A stretch of DNA of 64,000 nt. Source: a candidate division WOR-3 bacterium (GTDB lineage: Bacteria > Hydrothermota > Hydrothermia > LBFQ01 > DSFT01). Made by a program: the position numbers and the translations under genes. The notes beneath the pieces are model-generated. The model was not told the DNA's origin. It was given only the letters and a program-made list of their open reading frames with translations, and did not search any database. Location of the stretch: NCBI GenBank assembly GCA_965649115.1, contig CBFGJN010000002.1:987-64986 (forward strand), given 5' to 3'. This document shows, in pieces, positions 2,719-60,032 of this stretch (positions are counted from its first letter, which is position 1; each line of letters begins with the position of its first letter).

Positions 2719-2746
2719 GCTCTGTCCCCCTGATGGCAAAAGAATT

Positions 2747-2801
2747 GCAGAATTTTTGGACACAGCAAAAATAGAAATTCTCTTCCCTTTAAAATTTTAA
2801 T
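2747..2801 (+). promoter_or_regulatory. Predicted sigma70-like promoter for a leaderless transcript: -35-like TGGACA ... TTTAAAATTTTAAT immediately upstream of ATG (TAAAAT at -12..-7 relative to the A of ATG)
   Basis: The same architecture recurs at 9571..9606, 14901..14960(-), 19900..19926, 24718..24760(-), 27924..27966 (bidirectional), 30641..30676, 35901..35949, 41967..41990(-), 43383..43410(-), 43480..43498, 53090..53103 and 59950..59975(-). Confidence 0.55.
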
Positions 2802-3815
2802 ATGCTTTTTTATCTTATTAACTTTACAAGAGAAGATATTTATTTTGTTGATCAAAGTCTAAATTATGTTGTCGTTTTTACAGTAAATAAGAGAGATGAT
2901 AAAGGAGGTGTTGTAAGATATTATAATAAAAATTATAATCCAAATTATGTAATGTACGCAAGACCATTTGGTTATAAATGGAGTGTATGTAAAGATCCAG
3001 ATGGTGTTGAAAGGATGTGTTTAGACTTTCCTGATGCATATTCATTTTCTGTTTTACAAAAAGATACATCTACAATTTATATAAAAAAATTAAAAGATTT
3101 TCCTGACTCAGTTATTCCCGCAAATATAGATAAAAATGATAGTACAATTTATGTCTTTAATGCAAATGCAAGAATTTTTAAAGATAAATATGAAGAACTT
3201 GCGATGGTAATTGTTTTACCTTTAAAATTTCAAATTGTGGGATATTACTCAACGAGTGAGGGTAATTGGAAACAAGTAGGAAATACACTGGCATATTATG
3301 GCTCAAAAGTTCCTTCAAATAGTATATTTGTATTTTTTAAAGCAAAAGAGGACACATTATATAGAGAACTTGTTAAATTAATTCAAGAAGAAAGAGAAAA
3401 GAAAGAAGAAATTACTATTGAAAGAACTGAGAGAGGTTTGTTGGTTAGACTTCCAGAAAGTATATTATTTGAAAGTGGTTCAGCAGAAATTAAGGAAAGT
3501 GGCAAGGAAGTTATTAAAGAAATTTATAAGAAAATAGATTTTTCGAAAATTAAGGAATTGAGAGTAGAAGGACATACTGATAGTATTCCAATAATTGGAA
3601 AATTAACGGAAAAATATCCAACTAATTGGGAATTATCAACTGCTAGATCTTCTGCTGTTGTTAGATATTTAATTGAACTTGGGGCACCTAAGGAGAAATT
3701 AGCAGCTGTTGGTTATGCTGATGCAAGACCAATTGCAAGTAATTCAACACCTGAGGGGAGGGCAAAAAACAGGAGGGTTGAATTTATTATTATAAATGAA
3801 GAGAAACAACAATAA
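2802..3815 (+). CDS. OmpA/MotB C-terminal domain protein with an unknown conserved N-terminal domain (paralogue 1)
   Basis: The C-terminus reads TDSIPIIG...[20 protein letters not shown]...NRRVEFII, an OmpA_C-like peptidoglycan-binding signature. The first ~90 aa are shared with the next gene. The start codon follows a TTTAAAATTTTAAT box. Confidence 0.7.
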   Translation: MLFYLINFTREDIYFVDQSLNYVVVFTVNKRDDKGGVVRYYNKNYNPNYVMYARPFGYKWSVCKDPDGVERMCLDFPDAYSFSVLQKDTSTIYIKKLKDFPDSVIPANIDKNDSTIYVFNANARIFKDKYEELAMVIVLPLKFQIVGYYSTSEGNWKQVGNTLAYYGSKVPSNSIFVFFKAKEDTLYRELVKLIQEEREKKEEITIERTERGLLVRLPESILFESGSAEIKESGKEVIKEIYKKIDFSKIKELRVEGHTDSIPIIGKLTEKYPTNWELSTARSSAVVRYLIELGAPKEKLAAVGYADARPIASNSTPEGRAKNRRVEFIIINEEKQQ

Positions 3816-3830
3816 TAAGGAGGTTAGGGT

Positions 3831-4877
3831 ATGCTAAGTTTAACAATTTATATAATTAGCTATTCAAGGGAAGATGTTTATTATGTTGATCCTTCTCTAA
3901 GGTCAGTGATTGTATTTACTACGACAAAAAGACCTCAAAAGGGCGGTCTCATAAGGTACTATGTAGAGAACTATAATCCAAACTATATTGTTTATGCTAA
4001 ACCTGACAATTATACTGTATCAAAATGTAAAGATCCATTTGGTAATCAAAAATTATGCGTTGAATTTCCTCCCTCATTCTCATTTACAATTCTTCAAAGA
4101 GACTCTGCTTTACTTTATATGGTTCCTGCAAGTCAAGTAAAAGATGAAATTTTGCAAAAATTAAATATAAGTAAAGATAATGCTGATCAGTATTATATTA
4201 TGAAAGCAACAGCACAACTAATAGGTGATCCCGAAAAAAGAAGAAGAGGAATTGTTCTTTATGATTATATATCTCTTTCATTTGTTTTTCCATACGGATT
4301 TGAAATATATAATTATTATTCAACAGCAGAAGGTAAATGGAAACTTGTTGGCTCTACACTAAATTATTATTCAACAAGAATTCCTCAAACTGATATTTAC
4401 ATTGCTTTTAGACCTGTATATGATACGCTTGTTAAAGAATTGGTAAAAACAACAGGTGAAGAGAAAGAGAAGAAAGAGGAAGTTGTTTCAGTTGAAGCAA
4501 AAGCAAAGGGACCTGAAATTACGCTTTTAAAGGAGGAAATTAAATATCCTGTTGGTGTTGCAGAATTGACTGAACAAGATAAAAAATTGATTAGAGATAT
4601 TTACAATAGCATAAACTGGAATGAGGTTAAAGAAGTTATTGTTGAAGGACATGCTGATCCAAGACCAATTAGAGGAGAATTGGCTAAAAAATATCCTTCA
4701 AATTGGGAACTTTCTATATTTAGATCTTTGAATGTTGTTAGATACCTAATTGAACTTGGTGCTCCTCCTGAAAAAATTAGAGTAGCAGCAGCAGGTGAAT
4801 TTAGACCAAAATATCCAAATGATAATGAAGAACACATGGCAGGTAATAGGAGAGTTAATTTTTATGTAGTTAAATGA
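3831..4877 (+). CDS. OmpA/MotB C-terminal domain protein (paralogue 2)
   Basis: Same architecture as 2802..3815: N-terminus [11 protein letters not shown]...[11 protein letters not shown] and C-terminus [20 protein letters not shown]...NRRVNFYV. An AGGAGG RBS precedes the ATG. Confidence 0.7.
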
Positions 4878-6388
4878 AACACCAAAAAATTCTTATTTAT
4901 GATTTTGGTAGTCAATATACCCAACTTATAGCACGAAAAGTTAGGGAGTTAAATGTTTATTGTGAAATTGTTCCTCCTAATTACTTTGGAGATTTTGAAA
5001 ATGTTATTGGAATTATTTTAAGTGGAAGTCCTTATAGTATATATGAAAAAGATGCTCCTGATGTAAATAGGGAAATTTTTAATTTAGGAACACCTATTCT
5101 TGGAATTTGCTATGGATTACAAATAATTGCTAAACATTTTAATGGTGAAGTTTCACCATCTGAAAAAAGAGAATATGGAAAGACGAAATTAGAAATTATT
5201 AATAATTCGCTTTTATTTGATGGTTTAGAAAAGGAATTCTTTGTTTGGATGAGTCATGGGGATAAACTAACGAAATTACCAAATGGTTTTAAAGTAATAG
5301 CAAGAAGTGAAAATTCTGAATTTTGTGCAATTGAAAATAAACACATATTTGGTGTTCAATTTCATCCAGAGGTTCATCATACTCAATATGGGAAGGAAAT
5401 TTTAAGAAATTTTTTATATAAAATATGTAATGCAAAAGGTGATTGGAATTTAAGTGAATTTATAAGTGAAAAAATAAAAGAAATAAGAGAAATTGTAGGA
5501 AAAGAAAATGTTATTTTAGCCCTTTCGGGAGGTGTAGATTCAACTGTTCTTGGAAAACTATTGGAAAATGCTCTTGGAGAAAAGTTATACTTAGTTTTTG
5601 TAGATACTGGATTATTAAAAGATTATGAGAGTGAAAGACTAAAAAAGATATTTAATAAAAACTTATTTATTTTAAATGAAAAAGATGAATTTTTAAATGC
5701 TTTGAAAGGCATTATTGATCCGGAAGAAAAAAGAAAAATTATTGGGAGAAAATTTATAGAAGTTTTTAGGAAATTTATTAAAGATAATAGTTTGAAAATA
5801 AAATTTTTGGCACAAGGAACACTTTATCCCGATGTTATTGAGTCAAAACGAGTTGTAGGACCTTCTGATAAAATTAAAACTCATCATAATGTTGGAGGAC
5901 TTCCGGAAAATTTGGAATTTGAACTTATTGAACCTTTTAAATTTTTATTTAAAGATGAAGTTAGAAAAATTGGCAAATTATTAGATTTGCCTGATGAAGT
6001 AATATATAAGCATCCTTTTCCAGGTCCAGGATATGCTGTTAGAGTAATTGGGGAAGTGAGTGAGGAAAAACTCAAAATTATTAAAAAAGCAGATATTATT
6101 GTTGAAGAAGAAATTAAAAAATTTAATTTATATAATAAATTATGGCAAGCTTTTGCAGTTCTTCTTCCTGTAAAAAGTGTAGGAGTTATGGGAGATAGAA
6201 GAACTTATGAATATGTAATTGCCATAAGAATTGTTGAAAGTGAAGATGGAATGACTGCTGATTGGTCAAGAGTTCCTTATGATTTATTAGAAAAAATTAG
6301 CAATAGAATAACTAATGAAGTTAAGGGTGTTAATAGGGTCGTTTATGATATAACCTCAAAACCACCTGCTACAATTGAATGGGAATAA
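4874..6388 (+). CDS. guaA: GMP synthase (glutamine-hydrolysing)
   Basis: N-terminal GATase region ([21 protein letters not shown]), a SGGVDS PP-loop and the conserved C-terminal dimerisation region. Confidence 0.95.
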
Positions 6389-9367: not shown

Positions 9368-9606
9368 TTTAAAATTTTAATGGATAAATTGCTTATGTTT
9401 TTGCCTTGTTTAGTAATTCGGCAAGGGGGCTAAGAATTATTGCTTTGTCCAATAATTATTGTTAAATTCTTGATTATCAATAACTTATAAAAGCTTTGAG
9501 GAAATTATAGATTTAAATGGGTATTTATAAGGCGAAGGCTTAAATATAGAAATAATTATATTTTTAGAATTACTAGACAAACCAAAGAATTATAAGCTTT
9601 AAAATT

Positions 9607-10386
9607 TTGACTATGAATTATCAAAATATCCTTTTGTTTTTTGAAAACGAAATAGCTATTATTAAACTAAATAGACCCAAGTCTTTAAATGCTTTAAATA
9701 AAGAGTTAATGAGAGAACTTGCTGATTGTATAGAGAAACTTGAAAATGATAAAAATGTAAAAGTTATTATTATTACTGGTAATGAAAGAGCTTTTGCAGC
9801 AGGTGCGGATTTAAATGAGTTTTACAATAAAACACCTAATGATATGTTTGAAAATTATAGATTTTTGGAATGGGAAAGAGTTTATAAATGCTTTAAACCT
9901 TTAATAGCGGGAGTAAGTGGTTATGCACTTGGTGGTGGTTTTGAACTTGCCATGATTTGTGATATGATTGTTGCTTCTGATAGTGCTATTTTTGGACAAC
10001 CTGAAATAAATGTAGGTCTTATGCCAGGTGCTGGTGGAACCCAACGATTGACTAAAATTATTCAAAAACAAAGAGCAATGGAATATATTTTAAGTGGTAA
10101 GTACATAGATGTTTGGACAGCTTATAAATTGGGAATTGTAAATAAAATCGTTCCAACAGAAATTTATCTTGAAATGACAATAAAATTTGCAAAGGAATTT
10201 TTAAATAAACCTCCAATATCTTTAAATATAGCAAAGGATAGTATAAAAATGAGTTATGAAACGAATCTTCAAGAAGGTCTTGAATACGAAAGAAGAATGT
10301 TTTACTATTTATTTTCTACAAAAGATTCAATGGAAGGTGTTAAAGCTTTTCTTGAAAAAAGAAAACCAAACTTTAAAGGAGAATGA
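9607..10386 (+). CDS. Enoyl-CoA hydratase/isomerase (crotonase) family protein
   Basis: AFAAGADLNEF oxyanion-hole region, GYALGGGFELAMICD, and an overall length of 259 aa. Confidence 0.85.
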   Translation: MTMNYQNILLFFENEIAIIKLNRPKSLNALNKELMRELADCIEKLENDKNVKVIIITGNERAFAAGADLNEFYNKTPNDMFENYRFLEWERVYKCFKPLIAGVSGYALGGGFELAMICDMIVASDSAIFGQPEINVGLMPGAGGTQRLTKIIQKQRAMEYILSGKYIDVWTAYKLGIVNKIVPTEIYLEMTIKFAKEFLNKPPISLNIAKDSIKMSYETNLQEGLEYERRMFYYLFSTKDSMEGVKAFLEKRKPNFKGE

Positions 10387-14900: not shown

Positions 14901-14940
14901 TAGTTATTAAAATTTTAAAGTAGATTTAGTTCTAATTTTT

Positions 14941-15012
14941 GCTGTGTCTAGTAATTCTGAAATATAGATTATTTCTTATTTTGCCCGCCCACCCTGAAAA
15001 TAAGGCTTTGCC
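14941..15012 (-). repeat. A-type intergenic repeat module, full copy. Terminus GCTGTGTCTAGTAATTC, then an AT-rich palindromic region, then GCCCGCCCACCC and a short hairpin.
   Basis: Near-identical copies occur at 9518..9582(+), 24747..24824(-), 24901..24976(-), 30578..30650(+), 35838..35914(+), 39718..39790(+), 47419..47470(-) and 49463..49547(-). Confidence 0.8.
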
Positions 15013-15143
15013 CCCCTATAATCCCCCATAAAATCAATAATTTCTTTAAAAATTTTATAAGTTATTGACTATCAATCACTTAACACCATTTGCTAGACAA
15101 AGCATAATTATTTGCCTTGTCTAGTAATTAAGCCTTCCGCTTT

Positions 15144-15262: not shown

Positions 15263-15298
15263 AGCAGGAGGACTTTATTTCACTTTAAAATTTCAAAC

Positions 15299-16226: not shown

Positions 16227-16270
16227 AGGGCTAAAATTTTATAGGAAGGCATAACCTTGGCATAAGATTG

Positions 16271-16307
16271 GACACAGCAAAAACTTATGCTTTAAAATTT
16301 TAGAACT
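16271..16307 (+). promoter_or_regulatory. Predicted promoter for tRNA-Asn: TGGACA, 16-bp spacer, TTTAAAAT, 9 bp to the mature tRNA 5' end
   Basis: Canonical -35/-10 spacing. The mirror arrangement (TTGGACACAGCA, 16 bp, TTTAAAATTTTCAAACT) precedes tRNA-Lys on the minus strand at 47390..47432. Confidence 0.6.
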
Positions 16308-16380: not shown

Positions 16381-16382
16381 TT

Positions 16383-16901
16383 ATGTTAATTTTTTTTCTG
16401 ATAGCTCAAAAAGGCGATACAAACAATATCTTATCAAAAATTATAGAAAATAAGAAACCTATTCTTGGAACTGATAAAGCTGAACTAAAAATAGTAATTT
16501 TTGATGACCCTGATTGTCCATTTTGTAGAAGAAGTATGCCACTTGTAAAGCAATTATATGAAAATAATAAAGATAAAGTCGCGGTTTATATAAGATGGTT
16601 TCCATTAGATATTCATCCAGATGCTAAAAGGAAAGCAAAAATTTTGGCTTGTTCAAATGATTACTTTAAAACAAAAGAAGAGTTAATAAAAGGTAATAAT
16701 GTAAAACCTGATATTCCAAATTGTGATGGAGAAAAAATTGTCCAAGAAGATTTAGATTATGGATATAAAATTGGTGTAAGTGGAACACCCACATTTGTCA
16801 TATTTACTAAAAGTGATACTGCACTAATAAGTGGTGCACCACCAGATTATGAAGTATTAAAAAACACACTTTCAAAGAGGTTCAAAATTGACCTCAAGTG
16901 A
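16383..16901 (+). CDS. Thioredoxin-fold thiol:disulfide oxidoreductase (DsbA-like)
   Basis: CPFC active-site motif (DDPDCPFCRRS). The ATG lies 2 nt after the tRNA-Asn 3' end. Confidence 0.7.
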   Translation: MLIFFLIAQKGDTNNILSKIIENKKPILGTDKAELKIVIFDDPDCPFCRRSMPLVKQLYENNKDKVAVYIRWFPLDIHPDAKRKAKILACSNDYFKTKEELIKGNNVKPDIPNCDGEKIVQEDLDYGYKIGVSGTPTFVIFTKSDTALISGAPPDYEVLKNTLSKRFKIDLK

Positions 16902-17596: not shown

Positions 17597-18374
17597 ATTA
17601 TTTTTTATTTTATTTTTCTTTGGATGTTATAATTATCAAAAAAGTGAAAATTTAAGAGTTGTTTCATTAGTTCCATCAGCAACGGAAATAATTTATCTTT
17701 TGAATGCTGATAGTGTTTTAGTTGGAATAACTAATCAGGATAATTACAATAAATTTAAAGTTGGAGATATGTTAAATCCAGATTATGAAAAAATAATGAA
17801 ATTAAAACCAAATTTAATTATTTTAACTATGCCCTTACAAAAAAAAGTTCTTGAAGAAATCTCAAAGCTTAACATTGATACATTAATCATTAGCCCACAG
17901 AGTATTGATGATATTTTTAAAGATATATTAAGAATTGGTAAAGTTTTAAGAAAAGAAGAGAGGGCATTATTTTTAATTGATAGTTTAAAAAATGTTTTAA
18001 ATGAGATAAAAAATAATTCCAAAAATTTTGAAAATAATAAAGTTTTTTATGAAATATGGGATAATCCACTTTGGACAGCTGGAAATAAAACATTTATAAA
18101 TGATGCTTTAAAAATTTTGAATTTAAAAAATATATTTGAGGATAGGGAAGGTTATTTTATTGTTAGTGAGGAAGAGGTTATCAAAAGAAATCCTGATATT
18201 ATAATAATTGCTCATTCAAATGTTAAAATTAGTGATGTAAAAAATCGTAAATTTTGGCAAAATATAAATGCTGTAAAAAATAATAAAATTATTTTTGTTG
18301 ATGAAAATTCTTTTAATAAACCAAGTCCGAATATAATTAAAGCTATAAAATTTTTGAATTCACAACTTTACTAA
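17586..18374 (+). CDS. ABC transporter periplasmic substrate-binding protein, BtuF/FecB-like (cobalamin/siderophore type)
   Basis: LRVVSLVPSATEIIYLL...VGIT pattern typical of class III binding proteins. Confidence 0.7.
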   Translation: MLNRLFFILFFFGCYNYQKSENLRVVSLVPSATEIIYLLNADSVLVGITNQDNYNKFKVGDMLNPDYEKIMKLKPNLIILTMPLQKKVLEEISKLNIDTLIISPQSIDDIFKDILRIGKVLRKEERALFLIDSLKNVLNEIKNNSKNFENNKVFYEIWDNPLWTAGNKTFINDALKILNLKNIFEDREGYFIVSEEEVIKRNPDIIIIAHSNVKISDVKNRKFWQNINAVKNNKIIFVDENSFNKPSPNIIKAIKFLNSQLY

Positions 18375-19895: not shown

Positions 19896-19926
19896 CATAA
19901 TTTATTTACTTTAAAATTTTGAAACT

Positions 19927-23406: not shown

Positions 23407-23780
23407 GGATTTTGGCTATTGATTATGGTAGGAAAAAATGTGGAATAGCTATAACTGATAAAGAAAATAAAATTGTAATTCCTTATGGTATTATCAAAAC
23501 ATCGGAAATTATTCAAAAATTAAAGGAAATTATAAATCAAAAAGAGGTTAAAAAAATTGTAATTGGCCTTCCACTTTCATTAAGTGGCAAGGAACTTGAA
23601 ATTACCAAAGATGTTTATAGTCTTAAAGAAAAAATTGAAAAAGAATTTCATTTAGAAGTGATACTATTTGATGAAAGAATGACAAGTAAGATATTTAAAG
23701 AAAAGAACAACGATGACTTATCAGCTATGATTATATTAGAAAATTATTTAAAATTTTCTAAAATTCAAAAGCTTTCGTAA
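23403..23780 (+). CDS. ruvX: Holliday-junction resolvase-like RuvX/YqgF
   Basis: MRILAIDYGRKKCGIAITD N-terminus. Confidence 0.85.
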   Translation: MRILAIDYGRKKCGIAITDKENKIVIPYGIIKTSEIIQKLKEIINQKEVKKIVIGLPLSLSGKELEITKDVYSLKEKIEKEFHLEVILFDERMTSKIFKEKNNDDLSAMIILENYLKFSKIQKLS

Positions 23781-24717
23781 AACTTGTATTGTCAAAGTAG
23801 ATTTTCAAAATATACAAACCGTTTTTCAATTTTAGTTTTATTTCATGCTCTCCAGGTTTCATAAATCCTATATCTCTTTCTTCTACTTTACTTCCATTTA
23901 TTGAGAAAATCTCGTATCTTAAATACCTTTCATTGATAAGGTTTATTATTAATTTGCCATTTTTTATATCAAACTTATCAAAGGGTAATTTGGCTTTCTC
24001 ATCATTTGAGAGTGGAGTAAATGTTCCACAGGAACCACTTGCTACCCATTTTGTTATTCTTTCAAGGTAGTTGTTCGTTCCAGGATCCACACAATTCCAC
24101 GAAAAACAATGGTCAGTATATACAATTCTGCCGTTTCCATAATTTCCAACCATTAATGTTGGATCATTTGGTCCATTTGTTGGATCTATAATTAGTACGC
24201 TCCACGAGTTACTCCACGAACCTTCAATATCATAATCACCCGAGGTTTCAGCTATATTCAATCCAGATGTTATTGGGTGTAGTGGAGCGAGTGGTGTATA
24301 TTGTTGGCAGCTTGAAGTCCCGCAGTTCCACCAAGCACTTGAAACAGAAATTGAAAAGATAGCTGGTAAAGTGGGAACATTTCCTGCTTGATTTGGTTGA
24401 TTTATCCAATAACCTCCACCCATGAGAACGTAGTTTTGTAAGTTTGTCGATAGGAAGCCTAATGACCATATTGCTTGAATATCTACTAAAACAACATCAT
24501 ATTTACATAGCGAATCTGCACTTATATTTCCAAGGTTATTCACCTGAACTTGATAAACACTAGCACCAAGTGAAGATAACCTACTTGGAGTATCGTAAAG
24601 ATTTGAATAGATATACAGAACCTTTACTCCATTTAGAGCATTTAGGCCAACTTCGGGATTTTTATAATTTCCTTCTGTTCTTCCATCACTATAAAATAAG
24701 AAGTTAAGGATTAGCAT
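23758..24717 (-). CDS. Secreted hypothetical protein with T9SS-type C-terminal sorting domain-like tail
   Basis: The C-terminal ~80 aa beta-rich tail (GKLIINLINERYLRYEIFSINGSKV...LYILKIYF) resembles Por/T9SS C-terminal domains. The start was placed at the Met preceded by TTTAAAATTATTTTT. The track's TTG at 24738 is the alternative. Confidence 0.5.
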   Translation of the reverse strand: MLILNFLFYSDGRTEGNYKNPEVGLNALNGVKVLYIYSNLYDTPSRLSSLGASVYQVQVNNLGNISADSLCKYDVVLVDIQAIWSLGFLSTNLQNYVLMGGGYWINQPNQAGNVPTLPAIFSISVSSAWWNCGTSSCQQYTPLAPLHPITSGLNIAETSGDYDIEGSWSNSWSVLIIDPTNGPNDPTLMVGNYGNGRIVYTDHCFSWNCVDPGTNNYLERITKWVASGSCGTFTPLSNDEKAKLPFDKFDIKNGKLIINLINERYLRYEIFSINGSKVEERDIGFMKPGEHEIKLKLKNGLYILKIYFDNTSFTKAFEF

Positions 24718-24746
24718 AAAAATAATTTTAAAGCACAACTTTTTAC

Positions 24747-25095: not shown

Positions 25096-25485
25096 TTAAT
25101 TTTTGATTTTTTTTCTTATTTCATTCGCTCTTTCTTTTAAACCCATTTTTTCATAAATTTCTGCCATTTTTTTATAAACTTCATTTTCAAGTTTTGAATT
25201 ATAACCATAAGTTTTTTGGATATATTTTATAAGTTCGTTATATACAAGAAGTGTAGTTTCATATTCCTTTTTTTCTTCAAGAGCTTTTGCTAGAAGAAGA
25301 TGGGCATTTATAATCGTATCTGAAATTTCTTTATATCTTGGAACTTTTCTTAAAAAGTTTTTCAAATAGTAAATTGAAGAATCGTAATTTTTTAAGTTAT
25401 AGAAATAAATTGCTTTTTTGTATTCGGAAATATCTATATCCTTTAAATTATTTTGACAGGATAAAAGTAAAATGAAAAAAATCAA
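25096..25485 (-). CDS. TPR-like lipoprotein
   Basis: The annotated N-terminus (to 25584) is translated from a B-type repeat. A TTG at 25485 gives MIFFILLLSCQ with a lipobox. Confidence 0.45.
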   Translation of the reverse strand: MIFFILLLSCQNNLKDIDISEYKKAIYFYNLKNYDSSIYYLKNFLRKVPRYKEISDTIINAHLLLAKALEEKKEYETTLLVYNELIKYIQKTYGYNSKLENEVYKKMAEIYEKMGLKERANEIRKKIKN

Positions 25486-25628
25486 TGTTCTAATGCTGTG
25501 TCCGTATTTCGGCTTTGGGGGGCAAAGCTCCCCATTAAAACCCAGCATAAAATCAAGAATTTCAGAAAATTTTTTATAAATCATTGATTATCAAGCATTT
25601 AACAACATTTATTGGACAAAGCAACATT

Positions 25629-27923: not shown

Positions 27924-27966
27924 AAGTCTGAAAATTTTAAAGTTTGTGCCTTAAAATTTCAAGCTT

Positions 27967-30407: not shown

Positions 30408-30676
30408 AAACTCTTATGAATTTATTTTATTTGGTGTTTTAAGGTGTAGCCCTAGAAAAAATTATTTATTAGAACCAAAGAATTAAGAAATTGTATTTAT
30501 TTTATAAAGGTTTATAGTGATGGCAAAGAAGTTTTAAGTTTGAAAGCAATTAAAAACTAAGCCGAAAATGAGAAAGTAGAGCCGAAGGCTTAAAAATAGG
30601 GTGGGCAAAATATAATAAAATAAATAGTTTCAGAATTACTGAGCATAGCATTTCTTTATCCTTTAAAATTTTAGAC

Positions 30677-35673: not shown

Positions 35674-35949
35674 TATCCGTTAGCCATTAATTTTATTTTT
35701 GCTTATAAATATCTTTCTTTTTTGTATTCTCTCAAAACCCCCCAAAGCAAAAGAATAGAGTATTTTAGGGCAGGTGGGTAAATATAGAAGACAACTGCAA
35801 CGATTGTTTTAATGGGGGGATTATAGGGCGAAGTTTTAAGCCATAGGCTTATTTTCAGGGTGGGCAGGGAAAAATATAGAAAAATATATATTTTTAGAAT
35901 TACTAGACACAGCAGAGGACAAATTCTTAAAGCTTTAAACTTTTCAGAT

Positions 35950-41966: not shown

Positions 41967-42032
41967 TTTTAAAATTTTAAAGGCTTTTTGTAAGTTATAT
42001 TTATTTCTATATTTTGCCCACCCGCCCTATAT

Positions 42033-43382
42033 TCAAGGCTTCGCCTTTAAAAAACCCCATCTATTGAAAGCAAACTTTTCCTTTATAAATTTATAAATTA
42101 AAAAGTTAGAAATGAGACCATGTCTTTTAGCTATTTCATATGCTCTTTTTTCCCAGCCTTTTATGATATATTTAGCAACTAAATCTTGTTTTCTGTGCTT
42201 AACAATTAGTTTTAAATCCTTATTTAAAATTGCTAAAAATGTAGGTTTTTTAATTTGTAAAATGAAATTTTTGGCTTCTTTTAATTTCCCTTCAATATAA
42301 AGAGCAAATGCTTTTGCCAACTTATAGTTATCATCATCAAATTCTCTATTTACAATATCAATTTCTATGGTTTTTATTTCCAATATAAATCTCAAGTGAT
42401 TCCCTTTTAAAAAGTAAGACAAAGCTTTTAAAATTTTAAAATAAATACTATCGTCTGAAATTCTTGAAAATTCTTCAAAATTTCCTAAGTGGAATTTTAG
42501 TTTTTCATCTTTAAATAATAAATGTGCTTTTTTAATATGTCCTAAACTTACAAGAATAGAATATATTAGTTTTGAAAGCTCACTATCTTTTAAATTTTTA
42601 TATGATTTAATCCACCTTGAAAAAATTGGAAATAGTTTCTTATAAACTTCACTATCATAATAAAGACTATTTAAAATCAATAATAAAATTGGTTTTTTAA
42701 TTTGCTCTGGGAGTTTTAAAAATTCATTTAAATGCCTTTTAAAAATTTTTTTTATTTCATTATAATTACCAGATGCTCTTAAAAACATAATTTCAGGAAT
42801 AAATAAACTATAATATGTTAAAAGAAATTTTCTTTTTAATGCTAATTCTTTGTATTCCCTTATTTTATAAATCATTTCCTTGGTTGTTATTAAAATTGTT
42901 TTAGAATGGAAAATTTTTGAATAAATATAAGAAAATTTATAAACTACTAGATTGATGGGCAGTAAATTATCAGGAAGTTTCAATAAAATATCATAATCTT
43001 TTTCACTTGAAGGAATAAAGTGTTTTAAAAATTTTTTTAGATTTTTCAAATCATTTTTTTCAAATAAATAATGAACAAGTTGATTTATCTGCTTATTTTC
43101 TTTAAATCCATAAATATCATAAAGTGAAAGTTTAGAATAAATAGTAGAAATTGGCATTTTAAAAATTTTTGACAAATCTTTTAGATTTAAAAATGGGTTT
43201 TTCTCAAAGTAAATATAAATTTTATATGCTTCTTTGTCATATTCAAAAAAATTATTCTTTCTTTTAATTCTTGAAATTGTTGCTGGACTTAAATTTAAAA
43301 TTCTTGATATTTCTCTTATTTTAATCCCCTTTTTTATCATTTCATAAGCTTTAAACTTCTTTATAATATCGGTTTGTTTCAT
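42033..43382 (-). CDS. HTH-domain protein with long helical/TPR-like C-terminal region
   Basis: N-terminal HTH (IREISRILNLSPATISRIKRK). The start was set at the Met preceded by TTTATAATTTTCAATATT. Confidence 0.4.
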   Translation of the reverse strand: MKQTDIIKKFKAYEMIKKGIKIREISRILNLSPATISRIKRKNNFFEYDKEAYKIYIYFEKNPFLNLKDLSKIFKMPISTIYSKLSLYDIYGFKENKQINQLVHYLFEKNDLKNLKKFLKHFIPSSEKDYDILLKLPDNLLPINLVVYKFSYIYSKIFHSKTILITTKEMIYKIREYKELALKRKFLLTYYSLFIPEIMFLRASGNYNEIKKIFKRHLNEFLKLPEQIKKPILLLILNSLYYDSEVYKKLFPIFSRWIKSYKNLKDSELSKLIYSILVSLGHIKKAHLLFKDEKLKFHLGNFEEFSRISDDSIYFKILKALSYFLKGNHLRFILEIKTIEIDIVNREFDDDNYKLAKAFALYIEGKLKEAKNFILQIKKPTFLAILNKDLKLIVKHRKQDLVAKYIIKGWEKRAYEIAKRHGLISNFLIYKFIKEKFAFNRWGFLKAKP

Positions 43383-43498
43383 AATATTGAAAATTATAAA
43401 GTAAAGTGATAATAGCATTTTTAGACTTTTTGAAATAATAATAAATACTAGTGTTTCAATTGCCTAATAAAAATTGATTATTGTCTTAAAATTCTAAT

Positions 43499-46903: not shown

Positions 46904-47313
46904 TAATTATAAGCACAATTATTTGCATATATTTCAACATTTTGAAATACTTTTAAATTTACTTTAAATGTATCAGGTGTTTGTCCCTGACAGAAGTAGG
47001 ACCTAGTTTCCTTTATTCCATTAACTTTAACTGAAAATTTCACAATTCCATTTTCATGACCACTTGGAATACCTATTTTGATTGTATCAAATGTTATTAC
47101 TTTTGAATTTGAGCTTTTCGTAGGACCACTTATTGTTAGGTTTCCATCATAAGTCGCATATATTGTCCAATTTTGAACAGTTTGCATAGAAGAATCAACA
47201 TATATTTTTCCAGAAACTTTTAAACTATCAACAATAATAATTTCTTCACTTTTTTTTGGACCTGATGAACAAGCAATTAAAATAATAGTAATAATAGGGA
47301 ATAAAAATCTCAT
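46903..47313 (-). CDS. Hypothetical lipoprotein
   Basis: Signal peptide with lipobox LIACSS. The ATG lies 2 nt downstream of the tRNA-Lys 3' end. Confidence 0.45.
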   Translation of the reverse strand: MRFLFPIITIILIACSSGPKKSEEIIIVDSLKVSGKIYVDSSMQTVQNWTIYATYDGNLTISGPTKSSNSKVITFDTIKIGIPSGHENGIVKFSVKVNGIKETRSYFCQGQTPDTFKVNLKVFQNVEIYANNCAYN

Positions 47314-47315
47314 AA

Positions 47316-47389: not shown

Positions 47390-47618
47390 AAGTTTGAAAA
47401 TTTTAAAGGACTAAAAATTGCTGTGTCCAAAAATTCTGGAATTATTTATTTTTCAAAAGCCTTCGGCTTTAAAATACCCATTTTTTGCTTTGGGGGGCAG
47501 AGCCCCCCTTAATAATCCCCCCATAATTATTGGACAAAGCAACTAAAAATTAGTTTTTTGAAAAACCCTGTCTTATGCCTTGCCCCCCTAAACCCCCCGA
47601 TAGATCAATTGATTGTCA

Positions 47619-49414: not shown

Positions 49415-49654
49415 TTTTTAACCTCCTTTTAAAGATTGAAAATTTTAAAGGACTTAAATTTTGCTGTGTCTAAAAATTATGAAAAATATATTTTTCTATA
49501 TTTCTCCGAACCACCCTGAAATCAAGCCTTAGGCTTTAAAATGCCCATATTTTCCGCTTTGGAGGTCAAAGCCACCCTAAAAACTATAATTTCAAAAAAT
49601 TTTTCGGAAATTAAAGCTAACTTTTTTATTTTAAGCTTTAAACTTTTAGCGTTT

Positions 49655-50589: not shown

Positions 50590-53094
50590 ATGTTCTTAAA
50601 TAATGAGCGATTTACCGATAAAGCAAAAAGAGCGCTTCTCTTAGCAAGAGAGGAAGCTTTAAGATTTGGAAATGAATATATAGGAACTGAACATCTTTTG
50701 CTTGGAATACTTAATGTTGGTGAAAGTATCGCTATTTCTGCTCTTACAAATTTGGGTGTGGATATAGAAGAGCTTAGAATAGCTGTTGAACATTCCATTC
50801 ATAGAGGTGAATTTTCAAGGAGAGATCTTTCTGCTGAACTTCCACTTAATGCTTCATCAAAGAAGGCTATAAATGGTGCTATTGAGGAAGCAAGAAGAAT
50901 GGGTCAAACATTTGTTGGGCCAGAGCATTTGCTTCTTGGATTGCTAAAAGATAGAAGATCACTTGCTGCTCAAATTCTTGAAAGTATGGGTATTGATTAT
51001 GATAGTATAAGACAAGAGATAATTAGATTGATAAATCAAAATAGATATGAAGAATCTATGGGTTATTCATCTGGATATAGTTATTTTCCTTCTTATGAGC
51101 AAAGAAGAACAACTACACCACAAACACCAAGGCAATCAAATACAAGAGTTTTAGATAGTTTTTCAATAGATTTGACGCAATTAGCAAGGGAAGGTAAATT
51201 GGACCCTGTAATTGGTAGGGAGGAGGAGATTGAAAGAGTTATTCAAGTTCTTTCAAGGAGAAAGAAAAATAATCCTGTTTTAATTGGTGAGCCTGGTGTT
51301 GGTAAAACTGCTATTGTTGAAGGTCTTGCACAGAGAATAGCGAATGATGAAGTTCCTCCTGTATTAAGAAATAAGAGAATTGTTGCCCTTGATCTTGCTG
51401 CTATTGTGGCGGGAACAAAGTATAGGGGTCAATTTGAAGAAAGAATAAAAGCTATATTAAATGAAGTTATAAATGCTCCTGATGTTATACTATTTATAGA
51501 TGAGCTTCATACAATGATTGGAGCGGGAGCTGCGGAAGGTGCATTAGATGCTGCTAATATCTTAAAACCTGCACTTGCAAGAGGGCAAATAAGACTTATT
51601 GGTGCTACTACACTTGAAGAATATAAAAAATATATTGAAAGAGATGGAGCACTTGAAAGAAGATTTCAACCAATAATTATTGAACCTCCATCTGTTGAAG
51701 AAACTATTAGAATTCTCGAAGGTTTAAAAAGGGAATATGAAGAATATCATGGAGTAATATATACACAAGAGGCAATTGAAGCTGCTGCCAAACTTTCTGA
51801 TAGATACATTCAAGATAGATATTTGCCTGATAAGGCTATTGATGTTTTAGATGAAGCAGGTGCAATGGTTAAGCTTACTAAGCAGATTGACGATCCAGAA
51901 TTAAACAAACTTCAAAGAGAATTAGAACAAATTAGAAAAAGAAAAGCGTTTGCAGTTAGAAAAGAGGAATATAACTTAGCAGAAAAATTGAAACATAAAG
52001 AGGAAGAAATTCTTGAAAAAATTAGAAAGAGAAAAATGGAGATAAAAAAGGAAACTGCTGAGGTTACTTATGAAGATGTTGCTAAGGTAATATCCAGGTG
52101 GACAGGCATACCACTAACTCAAATAAGTTCAGATGAGGAAACAAAATTATTAAAACTTGAAGAAGAACTTAAAAAATATGTAATAGGTCAAGATTATGCT
52201 ATTAGCTTATTAGCAAAAGCTATTAGAAGGAATAGAGCAGGTATTAAAGATCCTAAAAGACCTATTGGTTCGTTTGTATTTCTTGGTCCAACAGGTGTTG
52301 GTAAAACTGAACTTGCTAAAAGTTTAGCAAGAGTACTATTTGGAAGTGAAGATGCACTTATAAGAATAGATATGAGTGAGTACATGGAAAGACATAATGT
52401 TTCAAGACTTATAGGCTCACCTCCTGGTTATGTTGGATATGAAGAGGGTGGTCAACTAACTGAAAAAGTTAGAAGAAAACCTTATAGTGTTATTCTTTTT
52501 GATGAAATTGAAAAGGCACATCCTGATGTATTTAATATATTGCTTCAAATTCTTGAAGATGGTATATTAACTGATGGACTTGGTAGGACAGTTAGTTTCA
52601 GAAATACAATTATAATAATGACATCAAATATAGGAACAAGACAAATTAGAGAAACAAAACATTTAGGTTTTTCAGTAAAAGAAGAAAAGGAACTTGATTA
52701 TAATGAGCTTGAAAAGTTATTGAAAGATGAATTTAAGAAGGTTGTTTCTCCAGAATTTTTAAATAGAATAGATGAAGTTATTGTTTTTAGACCATTAAAC
52801 AAAGAAGATTTGAAGAAAATTATTGAAGTTATGTTAAGAGATTTAAGAGAAAGATTGAAAGAAAAACATATTACGATAAAAGTTTCAGATAGATTAAAGG
52901 AATTTTTGGTTAATCAAAGCTATGACCCTGAATTTGGAGCAAGACCATTAAGAAGAGCTATAAGAAAATATATAGAGGAGCCAATAAGTGAAGCAATAAT
53001 AAAAGGTGAAGTTAAGGAAAATTCTGATGTTCTAATTGATTTAAATGAGAATAATGAAATTATTTTTAGAACGGATGTTTTAAGTGTGCTTTAA
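50590..53094 (+). CDS. clpC: ATP-dependent Clp protease ATP-binding subunit ClpC (ClpA/B family)
   Basis: Two Clp_N repeats, two AAA+ modules ([18 protein letters not shown]), a short middle domain and an HLGFS ClpP-docking loop. Confidence 0.9.
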
Positions 53095-53103
53095 AATTTC
53101 AAA

Positions 53104-58213: not shown

Positions 58214-59089
58214 TTAAATAACTTCTCTTGGTTTTAGATTTAAAATATCCCAAATTTCATTTTCAACACAAGTATTTCCTTCAAGTAGCATTTTAATCTG
58301 TTCATCACTTGCAGGAAACAATTCAAAATATCTAAAAATTCTCGCTATCGGTAAGATAATAAATTTTGGAATATAAATTGGAATTATAAATTTATTTTTT
58401 GATTTTGCTACTGCCTTAACAAAATCAACATATTTCCATTCTTTATTTCCACAAATATGAAAAATTCTTTTATATGTTTTTTCATTATTTATACTCCTTA
58501 CGAAAATTTCTGCAACATCTTCTCTATGAACAGGACTAATTTTATATTTACCATCTGAAAAAATTGGAAAGAAAATAAATTTAGATAAATCAAGGATTAA
58601 TTTTTTAAAATTAAATAACTCATCATCATCTATTATTAAACTTGGTCTAAAAATTGTCCAATTTAAATCAGTTTTTTTGAGATATTCTTCTGCCATATAT
58701 TTTGTTCTTTGATATGTAGTTCCATTTTCTTTAACACCATTTGCACTCATTAAAATAAATCGTTTTATATTTAATTTAATTGCTAAATCAATTGTTTTTT
58801 TAGCCCAATTGTAATGATAATCAATAAATTTCATATTTTTTTGTGGGAATTCTCTTATCAAACCAATTAAATAAATAACACAACTTACATTGTAATTTTT
58901 AATTTCATTTTCATAATCTTGAATATTTTGAACATCTCCAATTATAAATTTTACTTTATCTTTTAAATCTCCAAGTTTTCTTATAGATTTTTCTCTTATT
59001 AGAAGGATTGGATTATAATTATATTCCAAAAGTTTTCTTGTTATAGCTTTTCCTACAAAACCGCTTCCTCCAACAACAAGCACATTCAT
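58214..59089 (-). CDS. NAD(P)-binding epimerase/dehydratase-like SDR (NmrA/NDUFA9-like)
   Basis: VLVVGGSGFVGKAI Rossmann motif. Confidence 0.75.
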   Translation of the reverse strand: MNVLVVGGSGFVGKAITRKLLEYNYNPILLIREKSIRKLGDLKDKVKFIIGDVQNIQDYENEIKNYNVSCVIYLIGLIREFPQKNMKFIDYHYNWAKKTIDLAIKLNIKRFILMSANGVKENGTTYQRTKYMAEEYLKKTDLNWTIFRPSLIIDDDELFNFKKLILDLSKFIFFPIFSDGKYKISPVHREDVAEIFVRSINNEKTYKRIFHICGNKEWKYVDFVKAVAKSKNKFIIPIYIPKFIILPIARIFRYFELFPASDEQIKMLLEGNTCVENEIWDILNLKPREVI

Positions 59090-59949
59090 CTTTTTCTCCT
59101 CCTTTTATAAATTTGCTTTTTTATATCTTTTAAAAGTTCGCCATATGATGTATATATTTTTCTTCTTAAATTTGGTTTTTTCCCGTACATTGGTCCTCCC
59201 AAAAATAATATGCAGTTTATTTTATTACAACTCTTATCTAAAATGTCTATACTTTTTTCAAATTTTTTATTATCAACAACATAAACTGCTGAAATTATTA
59301 AAAATTTAGGTTTTTCTCTTTCAATTGCCTTTATAATATCAGAATAAGGCGTGTTTGAACCTATATATACAACATTATATCCTTCATAATTTAAAATAAA
59401 ATCAATAATTCTCAAAGGTATTTCGTGAATATCACCTTCAAGTGAAGTTATTATAAATTTTATTTTCTTTTTCTTTTTAAATGAAAATAAATTTTTTAAG
59501 TTTATAATTGATTCAATAACTTTTGATGATGCAATGTGTTCTTGATCTACACTAATTTCTCCTTTTTCCCAAAGCAAACCAAGTTCAAACAAACTCTTGC
59601 TTATAATTAAATCAAATGCTTTAACAATTCCAAATGAAAATATGATTACTTTTAATAAGTTTTCAACTTCTTTTTGACTTTTATTTAACATGTAATTTAG
59701 TAATTGTTTTGATAATTCTTCATAATCTTCAAAAATAATATAAGTTAATGTGTTTGTATCAGCATTTGAAAAGCCAGCTAAATCAGTTATTTTATTTTCT
59801 CTTATAAACTTTATAACTTCTTCAATAGGAAATCTTCTATGACCACCAATTGTTTTATGAAATTTTAGTAATCCTTCTCTTGACCAATTTTTTATCGTCG
59901 CTTCACTAACACCTAAAATTTTTGCAATATCTTTGGTTTTTAGAAACAT
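59086..59949 (-). CDS. CarH/LitR-type MerR-family regulator with B12-binding domain (light-responsive)
   Basis: MerR HTH (IAKILGVSEATIKNW), a W-x9-EH motif (WEKGEISVDQEH) and a Rossmann B12-binding motif (EGDIHEIP). The start was set at the Met after a CCTTTAAAATTATCAAA box because the track start at 60021 is over-extended. Confidence 0.7.
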   Translation of the reverse strand: MFLKTKDIAKILGVSEATIKNWSREGLLKFHKTIGGHRRFPIEEVIKFIRENKITDLAGFSNADTNTLTYIIFEDYEELSKQLLNYMLNKSQKEVENLLKVIIFSFGIVKAFDLIISKSLFELGLLWEKGEISVDQEHIASSKVIESIINLKNLFSFKKKKKIKFIITSLEGDIHEIPLRIIDFILNYEGYNVVYIGSNTPYSDIIKAIEREKPKFLIISAVYVVDNKKFEKSIDILDKSCNKINCILFLGGPMYGKKPNLRRKIYTSYGELLKDIKKQIYKRRRKR

Positions 59950-60032
59950 TTTGATAATTTTAAAGGATAAAATCGCTAAAAAAGATAAAAAAGAAAAAAA
60001 AGATAATTTAGGCTTTAACATTTTAAAACTTT
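59950..60032. promoter_or_regulatory. Divergent promoter region between the carH-like operon (-) and crtI operon (+). It contains TTTAAAA boxes for both directions.
   Basis: CCTTTAAAATTATCAAA precedes the corrected carH ATG (read on the minus strand). CATTTTAAAACTTT precedes the crtI ATG. A-rich direct repeats lie between. Confidence 0.45.

What the first reader, a model, noticed from the sequence alone, without database searches (positions are those of the whole stretch)
2741..2804. Conserved TTTAAAATTTT box 6-7 nt upstream of start codons predicts widespread leaderless mRNAs alongside SD-led internal genes
First genes of transcription units lack a Shine-Dalgarno sequence. They carry a near-palindromic (C)TTTAAAATTTT(A) box ending 6-7 nt before the start codon. 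This places TAAAAT exactly at -12..-7 relative to the A of ATG, so it acts as a -10 hexamer with transcription starting at or next to the start codon. The track starts affected are 2802, 9607, 14900, 19927, 27923/27967, 30677 (TTG), 35950, 41966, 43382, 43499 and 53104. A -35-like TAGACA/TGGACA, usually supplied by an A or B repeat terminus, lies 16-19 bp upstream, sometimes up to 25 bp. Genes internal to operons have strong GGAGG sites instead (3831, 18387, 49414, 50590, 53710, 53997, 54473). The box also allowed several over-extended ORF starts to be corrected (23758..24738, 35860, 42033..43418, 49541, 59086..60021), which supports its reality.
Basis: partly seen in the sequence, partly recalled or inferred. 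Interest (0 to 1): 0.65.

Follow-up and report, generated by a model that had tools for sequence, protein, structure and literature searches.

The report
Promoter box giving near-leaderless mRNAs
In this uncultured low-GC bacterium (candidate division WOR-3), a 13-base promoter box (sCTTTAAAATTTT) precedes nearly every operon, ending only 3-8 bases before the start codon, so most first genes are probably translated from mRNAs with little or no leader; this is a known style of gene expression, here in an extreme form and in a new lineage.

Summary
The exact 11-mer occurs 18 times in the window against 6.2 expected. With its invariant 5' C it occurs 15 times against 2.2 expected. In the window, 19 of 20 protein-coding first genes carry the box (at most 2 mismatches) ending 3-8 nt before the start codon. 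None of about 40 internal genes does, and 15 of those have GGAGG-type sites.

The box also precedes both tRNA genes, a TPP riboswitch in a relative, and SD-containing leaders such as FBP aldolase. It therefore acts on DNA as a promoter -10 element and is not a ribosome site. It is conserved in related metagenome genomes even where the flanks have diverged.

- No conserved -35 exists. The TAGACA/TGGACA repeat terminus sits at variable distance (18-27 nt) and is dispensable.
- TAAAAT lies exactly at -12..-7 of the ATG only in the gap-3 cases. About half the genes probably have a 3-5 nt leader starting at a conserved ACT.
- 49414 is a leadered first gene, not an internal one.

The pattern matches GeneMarkS-2 "group C" and the Deinococcus "-10 next to ORF" architecture. 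It is a new member of a known kind, unusually pervasive, with UUG and AUC starts and tRNA-UU-AUG junctions as extras. No transcription start sites were measured.

The parts
2788..2798 (+). Promoter box cc-TTTAAAATTTT. Gap 3 to ATG 2802 (OmpA/MotB-like, first gene of operon 2802-7959).
9371..9381 (-). Box ATTAAAATTTT. Gap 3 to ATG 9367 (ThiD/HMP-P kinase).
   Evidence: Phos_pyr_kin from residue 12
9598..9608 (+). Box TTTAAAATTTT. Gap 4 to ATG 9613 (enoyl-CoA hydratase).
14909..14919 (-). Box. Gap 8 (aataACTa) to ATG 14900, first gene of the Mre11/Rad50 operon.
15284..15294 (+). Box TTTAAAATTTC. Gap 4 to TTG 15299 (CDP-alcohol phosphatidyltransferase). The TTG start is kept in L055.
16233..16243 (-). 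Box TATAAAATTTT. Gap 6 to ATC 16226, the only near-cognate start upstream of the 4HBT thioesterase domain.
16291..16301 (+). Box. Gap 6 (agaACT) to G1 of tRNA-Asn (16308-16380).
16381..16385 (+). TT + ATG directly after the tRNA-Asn discriminator. Start of the thioredoxin/DsbA-like ORF 16383-16901.
18344..18354 (+). Box-like gc-TATAAAATTTT, 32 nt upstream of ATG 18387 with GGAGG. Possible internal leadered promoter.
19910..19920 (+). Box. Gap 6 (gaaACT) to ATG 19927 (TPR protein).
24722..24732 (-). Box TTTAAAATTAT. Gap 4 to ATG 24717 (corrected start of ORF 23758..24738).
27931..27941 (-). Box. Gap 7 (cagACTt) to ATG 27923.
27950..27960 (+). Box CTTAAAATTTC. Gap 6 to ATG 27967 (S9 peptidase). 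Together with 27931-27941 it fills the 43-nt divergent intergenic region.
30662..30672 (+). Box. Gap 4 to TTG 30677 (superoxide dismutase). The twin-arginine signal M-L-R-R-D-F-L-K fixes this start.
35934..35944 (+). Box TTTAAACTTTT. Gap 5 to ATG 35950 (FadB). The profile aligns from residue 1.
41971..41981 (-). Box. Gap 4 to ATG 41966 (Ser/Thr kinase). Box and gap are conserved in L030, L035, L037 and L040 without the A repeat.
43390..43400 (-). Box TTTATAATTTT. Gap 7 to ATG 43382 (N-terminal HTH protein). Conserved in L038 and L040.
43485..43495 (+). Box CTTAAAATTCT. Gap 3 to ATG 43499.
47397..47407 (-). Box. Gap 7 (caaACTt) to G1 of tRNA-Lys (47389-47316). Conserved in eight related loci.
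47311..47315 (-). TT + ATG directly after the tRNA-Lys discriminator. Start of lipoprotein ORF 46903-47313 (operon with PIN protein and Obg).
49439..49449 (-). Box followed by 24 nt containing GGAGG, then ATG 49414 (FBP aldolase/phosphatase). This is a leadered first gene. The arrangement is conserved in six relatives.
49637..49647 (+). Box TTTAAACTTTT. Gap 7 to ATG 49655 (corrected start; first gene of the clpB operon).
53090..53100 (+). Box TTTAAAATTTC. Gap 3 to ATG 53104 (ribosomal protein S20). The box contains the clpB stop codon 53092-53094.
59954..59964 (-). Box TTTAAAATTAT. Gap 4 to ATG 59949 (MerR-HTH/B12-binding regulator). The HTH aligns from residue 2.
60014..60024 (+). Box TTTAACATTTT. 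Gap 8 (aaaACTtt) to ATG 60033 (CrtI-family desaturase).
3816..3830 (+). Example of an internal-gene SD: taaGGAGGttagggt before ATG 3831. Similar GGAGG sites precede 13159-, 18387, 40713-, 50590, 53710, 53997, 54473, 54661, 59089- and 61468.

Best explanation
The box is the core promoter of this lineage. It is a -35-independent, extended -10 element with consensus s-C-TTTAAAATTT-T/c. TAAAAT serves as the -10 hexamer, an invariant C sits at about -15, and a T-tract occupies -6..-4. It is presumably read by the housekeeping sigma-70-family holoenzyme.

Transcription would start about 4 nt after the box, which is 7 nt after TAAAAT. In roughly 40% of operons that nucleotide is the A of the start codon or lies next to it (gap 3-4), giving truly leaderless mRNA. 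In most of the rest it is the A of a conserved ACT, giving a 3-5 nt leader (5'-ACU(N)AUG). Neither class has room for a Shine-Dalgarno sequence, so the first cistron must be initiated by 5'-end-proximal (leaderless-type) initiation. Downstream cistrons use GGAGG or translational coupling through overlapping stop and start codons.

Shown here: the motif, its enrichment, its restriction to first genes, its fixed spacing to coding and non-coding RNA 5' ends, its conservation in relatives, and the absence of a -35.

Inferred, not shown: the exact transcription start site, the sigma factor involved, and the translation mechanism.
For: Enrichment over shuffles is clear.

Restriction to first genes: 19/20 first genes against 0/40 internal genes carry the box at gap 3-8.

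Narrow spacing across 207 kb of the clade: gap 3: 7, gap 4: 12, gap 5: 4, gap 6: 10, gap 7: 10, gap 8: 2 sites. Control loci of matched GC content give 1/109.

The box precedes RNAs that are not translated, at the same spacing:
- tRNA-Asn, gap 6; tRNA-Lys, gap 7; tRNA-Arg in L035, gap 4.
- The Rfam TPP riboswitch match in L031 starts 2 nt after the box.

The box also lies upstream of SD-containing leaders:
- FBP aldolase in the window and six relatives.
- Two genes in L055.

Two features outside the selected 11-mer are conserved:
- C at -1 in 40/45 start-proximal sites against 59/304 other matches (p = 6e-20).
- A-C-T at positions 4-6 after the box in the long-gap class (A 10/12, C 7/12, T 10/12). 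The same ACT precedes the tRNAs.

A 43-nt divergent intergenic region (27924-27966) consists only of two boxes and their gaps.

Conservation in other loci:
- Orthologous promoters keep the box and its spacing while the flanks diverge.
- An independent 20-kb region of a relative (L055) shows the box before all 13 first genes. Ten have gap 3-8, two have SD leaders, and one start is uncertain.
- A 40%-GC relative (L033) has the same type of box at gaps 3-6.

Start codons are anchored by homology or signal peptides (TAT motif at 30677; lipobox at 47313).

The geometry matches published bacterial leaderless architectures: a Pribnow box about 10 nt, or 6-8 nt, from the start of first genes, with SD for the other genes (PMC6028130, PMC3160421, PMC12340547).
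Against: No transcription start site or ribosome data exist for this organism.

About half of the gaps (6-8 nt) are too long for the start codon itself to be +1 with normal -10 geometry. Strict leaderlessness therefore holds for only part of the set. How 3-5 nt leaders are translated is unclear. From my own recollection, not checked here, extra 5' nucleotides lower leaderless translation in E. coli.

Several box-proximal starts are TTG (15299, 30677; L030 10983) and one is ATC (16226). In mycobacteria, leaderless initiation works only with ATG or GTG (PMC4633059).

Five of the window's starts were chosen partly because of the box, which is circular. Of these, 24717 has no independent support.

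The motif logo within the 11-mer is inflated because sites were selected by match to it.

The sample is 64 kb plus about 160 kb from relatives, not a whole genome.
Confidence: 0.78

Rival explanations
1. The box acts in the RNA as a non-SD, A/U-rich translation initiation element, for example an S1-binding enhancer like the non-SD motif of the FCB group. On this view it lies within a longer 5' UTR transcribed from promoters further upstream.
For: The box occupies the position where an RBS would sit, 3-8 nt before the start codon. The organism is affiliated with WOR-3 and its Obg resembles those of Balneolaceae. Most FCB-group genomes use a non-SD motif (PMC6028130).
Against: The box is absent from all of about 40 internal genes, whereas group-B motifs precede all genes (PMC6028130). 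It precedes three kinds of tRNA gene and a riboswitch at the same spacing. It lies 24-32 nt upstream of genes that have their own GGAGG. No other conserved upstream motif exists that could serve as the promoter. A 43-nt divergent intergenic region leaves no room for one.
Confidence: 0.07
2. The box is the binding site of a global DNA-binding protein, or it is simply part of the mobile intergenic A/B repeats. On this view its association with gene starts is a by-product of where those repeats insert.
For: Many window copies lie next to A or B repeat termini. The sequence is a near-palindrome containing A4T4. The A repeat carries a box-like CTTTAAAATAC at its far end (D14).
Against: Orthologous promoters in L030, L037 and L040 keep the box and its spacing without any repeat. 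Some boxes lie inside coding sequence: the rpsT box overlaps the clpB stop codon, and L055 620 is another case. Some repeats occur without a box (39722-39795, 24900-24980). The single-nucleotide precision of spacing to RNA 5' ends fits a promoter better than an operator.
Confidence: 0.05
3. The box is an A/U-rich endonuclease processing site of RNase E/Y type. Cleavage there would trim long primary transcripts to give 5' ends next to start codons and tRNAs.
For: The box is AU-rich. It is found before tRNAs, whose precursors are processed. The rpsT box lies within a possible clpB read-through transcript.
Against: Divergent gene pairs still need promoters, and no other motif is available. The invariant C and the TAnnnT-type core match a -10 element. 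The box is conserved to a degree beyond what known RNase sites require.
Confidence: 0.03
4. The box is a composition artefact. TTTAAAATTTT is just a common word in a 26%-GC genome.
For: About 5 of the 18 exact matches lie inside genes with no feature downstream, close to the shuffle expectation of 6.
Against: 0 of 100 shuffles reach the observed counts. Control loci of matched GC content have 0.75-1.4 sites per 10 kb against 4.7-7 in the clade, and 1/109 of their sites are start-proximal.
Confidence: 0.01

Closest known systems
Bacterial leaderless architecture: GeneMarkS-2 'group C', the 'TA-led' genes of Zheng et al. 2011, and the Deinococcus '-10-motif adjacent to ORF'
   Same: A -10-like TAnnnT hexamer lies a few nt upstream of the start codon of first genes in operons. 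SD sites serve the other genes. The motif is useful for correcting over-extended start annotations (PMC6028130, PMC3160421, PMC12340547).
   Different: The lineage differs: WOR-3, not Actinobacteria or Deinococcus-Thermus. No paper in the library pairs 'leaderless' with 'WOR-3'. The motif is a 13-nt sCTTTAAAATTTT rather than a bare TAnnnT. The share of first genes is about 29/33 in two regions, against 25-50% typical for group C and about 64% in D. deserti (PMC6028130). The hexamer-to-start distance has two modes, 6-7 and 9-10 nt, rather than 6-7 only. UUG and AUC starts occur.
-10-only / extended -10 sigma-70 promoters of low-GC bacteria
   Same: An A/T-rich -10 hexamer carries most of the information and no -35 is conserved. 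Zheng et al. note strengthened -10 signals and missing -35 regions in low-GC genomes (PMC3160421).
   Different: The upstream extension is C at -15 (preceded by G/C), not TG at -15/-14. A T-tract fills -6..-4.
Bacteroidetes sigma-AB promoters (-7 TAnnTTTG, -33 TTTG; cited from my own knowledge, not read here)
   Same: The phylogenetic neighbourhood is related (FCB). Both have a TA...TTT core close to the transcription start.
   Different: The spacing inside the motif differs by one base (TAnnnTTT). There is no terminal G and no -33 TTTG. This organism uses GGAGG sites, unlike most Bacteroidetes.
Archaeal leaderless genes (GeneMarkS-2 group D; TATA box about 22-26 nt upstream of the start)
   Same: An AT-rich TTTAAA-like box lies upstream of leaderless first genes, and a high proportion of operons are leaderless.
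   Different: The distance is 3-8 nt, not 22-26 nt. The gene content is bacterial (Pol I, ClpB, OmpA-like, SSB, lipoprotein and TAT signals), and relatives encode sigma-70.
Mitochondrial tRNA punctuation (comparison for the side observation only)
   Same: tRNA genes abut the next ORF's start codon with 1-2 nt between. Excision of the tRNA would leave an essentially leaderless mRNA.
   Different: This is a free-living-type bacterial chromosome. Only four tRNA loci were seen, and one of them has a 10-nt spacer. No processing data exist.

Membership tests
Bacterial leaderless-gene architecture (GeneMarkS-2 group C) | A Pribnow-like motif localised about 6-10 nt upstream of the start codon of first genes in operons | tested here: met
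   TAAAAT ends 6-11 nt before the start in 19/20 first genes in the window and 10/13 in L055.
Bacterial leaderless-gene architecture (GeneMarkS-2 group C) | The motif is absent from internal genes, which use an SD-type RBS | tested here: met
   0/40 internal genes have the box, and 15/40 have a GGAGG-type site at 3-12 nt.
Bacterial leaderless-gene architecture (GeneMarkS-2 group C) | The transcription start coincides with, or lies within about 5 nt of, the start codon | not testable with these tools
   Only geometric inference is available: positions of tRNA and riboswitch 5' ends and the conserved ACT at the predicted +1.
Bacterial leaderless-gene architecture (GeneMarkS-2 group C) | Translation starts at the 5'-terminal start codon without SD | not testable with these tools
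   Start codons are anchored by homology and signal peptides. No ribosome or proteome data are available.
Canonical two-hexamer sigma-70 promoter | A -10 hexamer resembling TATAAT (TAnnnT) | tested here: met
   TAAAAT matches 5/6 and is invariant at T1, A2 and T6 in 32/32 aligned promoters. The set was selected on the box.
Canonical two-hexamer sigma-70 promoter | A -35 hexamer TTGACA at 16-18 nt | tested here: not met
   No position from -40 to -3 exceeds 0.35 bits. The best -35 match equals that of controls (p = 0.53). The generic two-hexamer scan is at chance level (140 against 128, and 127 against 127).
Extended -10 (TGn) promoter | TG at -15/-14 | tested here: not met
   The positions upstream of TAAAAT read s-C-T-T. 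C is present in 30/32 promoters.
Bacteroidetes sigma-AB promoter | -7 TAnnTTTG and -33 TTTG | tested here: not met
   The consensus TAAAATTTT has one extra base before the T-tract and no G. No upstream TTTG is conserved.
Archaeal TATA/BRE promoter with leaderless start (group D) | A TATA box about 22-26 nt upstream of the start codon | tested here: not met
   The box ends 3-8 nt before the start.
Non-SD RBS of the FCB group (GeneMarkS-2 group B) | The same motif lies upstream of both first and internal genes | tested here: not met
   0/40 internal genes have it, and it precedes tRNAs.

The most novel reading that the evidence does not exclude
This WOR-3 lineage may run almost its whole transcriptome from one stereotyped, -35-independent 13-nt promoter placed about 4 nt from each RNA's functional 5' end, whether mRNA, tRNA or riboswitch. 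On this reading:
- About 85-95% of its operons are translated without a usable leader.
- Start-codon choice at the 5' end is relaxed: AUG, GUG, UUG and a conserved AUC.
- CCA-less tRNA genes abutting ORFs (tRNA-N73-UU-AUG) yield further leaderless mRNAs through 3' tRNA processing, which would be a mitochondria-like punctuation mode in a free-living-type bacterium.
Probability: 0.3. Interest if true: 0.7.

Novelty: new member of a known kind. Interest (0 to 1): 0.45.

Why it matters
The box has a practical use for annotating these uncultured WOR-3 genomes. With one 13-nt motif one can delimit nearly every transcription unit and fix gene starts. It corrected five over-extended ORFs in the window. 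It also recovered a thioesterase whose ATC start had made JGI's annotation of the close relative (L055) call only a truncated 99-aa protein.

Biologically, it extends the leaderless-dominant mode of expression from Actinobacteria and Deinococcus-Thermus to a candidate phylum near the FCB group, whose members mostly use a different, non-SD mode. The extent here approaches that of haloarchaea.

If start sites are confirmed experimentally, the lineage would be a natural system for three questions: how bacterial ribosomes initiate on 0-5 nt leaders, how they do so with non-AUG codons, and whether tRNA processing can create translatable leaderless mRNAs.

Tried and rejected
- A genome-contig scan with the repeat terminus AGAATTWYTRGACACAGCA returned only single chance hits in unrelated genomes. 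Loci L002-L029 are irrelevant.
- The -35 idea was tested and rejected as a general feature. The TWGACA-to-TAAAAT spacers, counted by hand from the contexts, are 18-21 nt or 26-27 nt.
- The generic sigma-70 and intrinsic-terminator scans are at chance level and give no help with transcription-unit boundaries.
- The archaeal-TATA reading was rejected on spacing and on bacterial gene content.
- The non-SD RBS reading was rejected because the box is absent from internal genes and present before tRNAs.
- More distant WOR-3 relatives (L052 and L053, 56% Obg identity, 38% GC) mostly show TATAAT-like boxes with SD leaders. The architecture is therefore not phylum-wide.
- L041-L048 turned out to be another lineage and were used only as controls.
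- A literature search for tRNA-linked leaderless mRNAs in bacteria found nothing directly comparable.
- ORF 25096..25584 runs through intergenic repeats and is probably not a gene. It was left out of the counts.
Full report
**What the window is.**
The 64-kb window is 24-32% GC. It is densely packed with bacterial genes in tight operons, many with overlapping stop and start codons. Examples are Pol I, ClpB, SSB, S20/S6/S18/L9, Obg, OmpA/MotB-like proteins, a FadB-type fatty-acid oxidation enzyme, archaeal-type FBP aldolase/phosphatase and Mre11/Rad50. It holds two tRNA genes. The closest named Obg homologues are from 'candidate division WOR-3 bacterium' MAGs. An identical FBP aldolase is on record in MAG GCA_965648865.1.

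- The exact TTTAAAATTTT occurs 18 times against 6.2 +/- 2.5 in shuffles.
- With its 5' C it occurs 15 times against 2.2 +/- 1.4.
- I re-derived gene starts. Of the 20 protein-coding first genes in the window, 19 have the box (at most 2 mismatches) ending 3-8 nt before the start codon.
- The one exception, FBP aldolase at 49414, has the box 24 nt upstream followed by GGAGG.
- None of about 40 internal genes has the box. Fifteen have GGAGG-type sites, and most of the others overlap the preceding gene. Fisher p = 1e-14 for the box and 0.011 for SD.

**Start codons are not arbitrary.**
- The FadB, enoyl-CoA hydratase and CrtI profiles align from the first residues.
- ThiD, S20 and CDP-alcohol phosphatidyltransferase domains begin within the first 5-23 residues. 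The MerR HTH of the corrected 59949 start aligns from residue 2.
- The TTG at 30677 encodes M-L-R-R-D-F-L-K, a twin-arginine signal.
- The ORF at 47313 begins with a lipoprotein signal peptide.

**Related genomes.**
I fetched loci from close relatives with Obg identity of 80-95%: L030, L031, L032 and L035-L040.
- Over 207 kb, 45 of 349 de-duplicated box matches (at most 1 mismatch) have an ORF-opening start codon 3-8 nt downstream. The counts by gap are 7, 12, 4, 10, 10 and 2. One match falls at gaps 0-2 and one at 9-11.
- Loci of equal GC content from another lineage give 1 of 109. Their box density is 3-6 times lower.
- Orthologous promoters (kinase, rpsT, FadB, clpB operon, FBP aldolase, tRNA-Lys) keep the box and its spacing while the flanks differ.
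- An independent region of a relative, L055, has the box before all 13 first genes. Ten have gap 3-8, two have SD leaders, and one start is uncertain.
- A 40%-GC relative (L033, 63% Obg identity) has the same kind of box at gaps 3-6. More distant WOR-3 loci (L052, L053) mostly have TATAAT-like boxes with SD leaders. The trait is therefore clade-level, not phylum-wide.

**Why the box is a promoter and not a ribosome site.** It precedes RNAs that are not translated, at the same spacing.
- tRNA-Asn has gap 6 and tRNA-Lys gap 7, the latter in eight related loci. tRNA-Arg in L035 has gap 4, and a tRNA-fMet/Met pair in L055 has gap 12.
- The full-length Rfam TPP riboswitch match in L031 begins 2 nt after the box.
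- The box lies upstream of SD-containing leaders.
- The 43-nt divergent region 27924-27966 consists of two boxes and their gaps.
- The logic matches that of GeneMarkS-2: a motif confined to first genes is a promoter, and one before all genes is an RBS (PMC6028130).

**Anatomy of the motif (n = 32).**
The consensus is s-C-TTTAAAATTT-T/c, followed by [a/c]-A-n-A-c-T.
- The C was not part of the search pattern. It is present in 30/32 promoters and in 40/45 start-proximal sites, against 59/304 other matches.
- TAAAAT fits TAnnnT. With TAAAAT at -12..-7, the predicted +1 is the fourth base after the box.
- For gap 3 that base is the A of ATG.
- In the long-gap class it is an A in 10/12 cases, followed by C (7/12) and T (10/12). 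The same ACT precedes tRNA-Lys and tRNA-Asn.
- I therefore infer two classes: start codon at +1/+2 (gap 3-4) and 5'-ACU(N0-2)AUG (gap 6-8).

**The -35 claim fails.**
- No upstream column exceeds 0.35 bits.
- The best TTGACA match at 15-20 nt spacing is no better than upstream of non-promoter matches (3.38 against 3.33, p = 0.53).
- The TWGACACAGCA terminus belongs to an intergenic repeat of about 80 nt (A; B is a second family). It lies 18-27 nt from TAAAAT by hand count from the contexts.
- The repeat sometimes has no box beside it (39722-39795). It is absent from orthologous promoters in relatives.
- Generic two-hexamer promoter scans and terminator scans are at chance level.

**Comparison with known systems.**
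- The pattern is the bacterial leaderless architecture described computationally by Zheng et al. 2011 (TA-like signal about 10 bp upstream; PMC3160421).
- It also matches GeneMarkS-2 group C, with a Pribnow box at 6-8 nt and SD for the other genes. Group C is common in Actinobacteria and Deinococcus-Thermus, whereas 90% of FCB genomes are group B (PMC6028130).
- It was shown experimentally in Deinococcus, where the -10 motif lies 6-7 bp upstream of ORFs and is used to correct starts (PMC12340547).
- I found no paper linking 'leaderless' with 'WOR-3'.
- The differences are the lineage, the long and stereotyped -35-less motif, and the very high share of first genes (29/33 in two regions). The spacing is two-peaked, and non-AUG starts occur. 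Shell et al. found that only ATG and GTG work at the leaderless position in mycobacteria (PMC4633059).

**Side findings.**
- In three of four tRNA transcription units the tRNA is CCA-less and followed by T or TT and then the ATG of a conserved ORF. No SD is possible there. tRNA 3' processing would leave a 1-2 nt leader.
- The thioesterase at 15822-16226(-) has no canonical start upstream of its 4HBT domain. An ATC lies 6 nt after a box, and the same ATC at the same spacing is present in L055 despite neighbouring substitutions.

**Verdict.**
It is a new member of a known kind and an unusually extreme one. Experimental mapping of transcription start sites is the missing step.

Noticed in passing
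window 16308-16385 (+), 47311-47389 (-); L035 2815-2889 (-); L030, L031, L037-L040, L050: CCA-less tRNA genes (Asn, Lys, Arg) are followed by the discriminator base, then T or TT, then the ATG of a conserved ORF (thioredoxin/DsbA-like protein; lipoprotein-PIN-Obg operon). No SD is possible there. This suggests that tRNA 3' processing releases an essentially leaderless mRNA. In L055 a tRNA-fMet/Met pair is instead followed by 10 nt and then a TTG.
   Followed up: partly
window 15822-16243 (-); L055 9881-10300 (+): A 4HBT thioesterase has no ATG, GTG or TTG upstream of its domain. An ATC codon sits 6 nt after a TATAAAATTTT box. The same ATC is conserved at the same spacing in an independent relative. 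JGI's annotation of that relative (L055) called only a truncated 99-aa product (P0123). More distant orthologues begin with Met at the equivalent residue.
   Followed up: partly
window 15299 and 30677 (+); L030 10983; L055 10823 (-) and 620 (+): Several box-proximal starts are TTG or GTG. They include a superoxide dismutase whose TTG is fixed by a twin-arginine signal peptide. In mycobacteria TTG does not support leaderless initiation.
   Followed up: partly
window 9441-9587, 14940-15110, 15223-15266, 24740-24990, 25530-25628, 30584-30650, 35848-35917, 39722-39795, 41972-42054, 49461-49552: Two families of intergenic repeats are present. A is about 80 nt: AAGCC-TTNG-GGCTT hairpin, GGGTGGGCGGG, AAATATAGAAATAAT, TAGAATTACTAGACACAGCA. 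B reads TTATAAGTTATTGATAATCAAG...TTGGACAAAGCA. There are also GC-rich hairpin units. They cluster between operons and were not identified as any known element. The far end of A holds a box-like CTTTAAAATAC.
   Followed up: partly
window 59086-59949 (-) and 60033-63515 (+): A MerR-HTH plus B12-binding regulator (CarH/LitR-like) is transcribed divergently from a crtI-family carotenoid operon, with a box on each side. This may be a light-controlled pigment module.
   Followed up: no
window 53090-53104 (+): The rpsT (S20) promoter box overlaps the last codons and the TAA stop of clpB. The ribosomal-protein operon therefore starts 10 nt after clpB ends.
   Followed up: no
window 25096-25584 (-): This ORF runs through intergenic repeat units (GGGGAGCTTTGCCCCCC and others) and is probably not a gene.
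   Followed up: no
L050 1-1594: The promoter box plus tRNA-Lys is tandemly duplicated in one metagenome contig. Only the second copy abuts the lipoprotein ATG.
   Followed up: no
L031 19199-19326 (-): A TPP riboswitch for the thiC operon starts 2 nt after a promoter box. The aptamer therefore begins essentially at the predicted 5' end of the transcript.
   Followed up: partly
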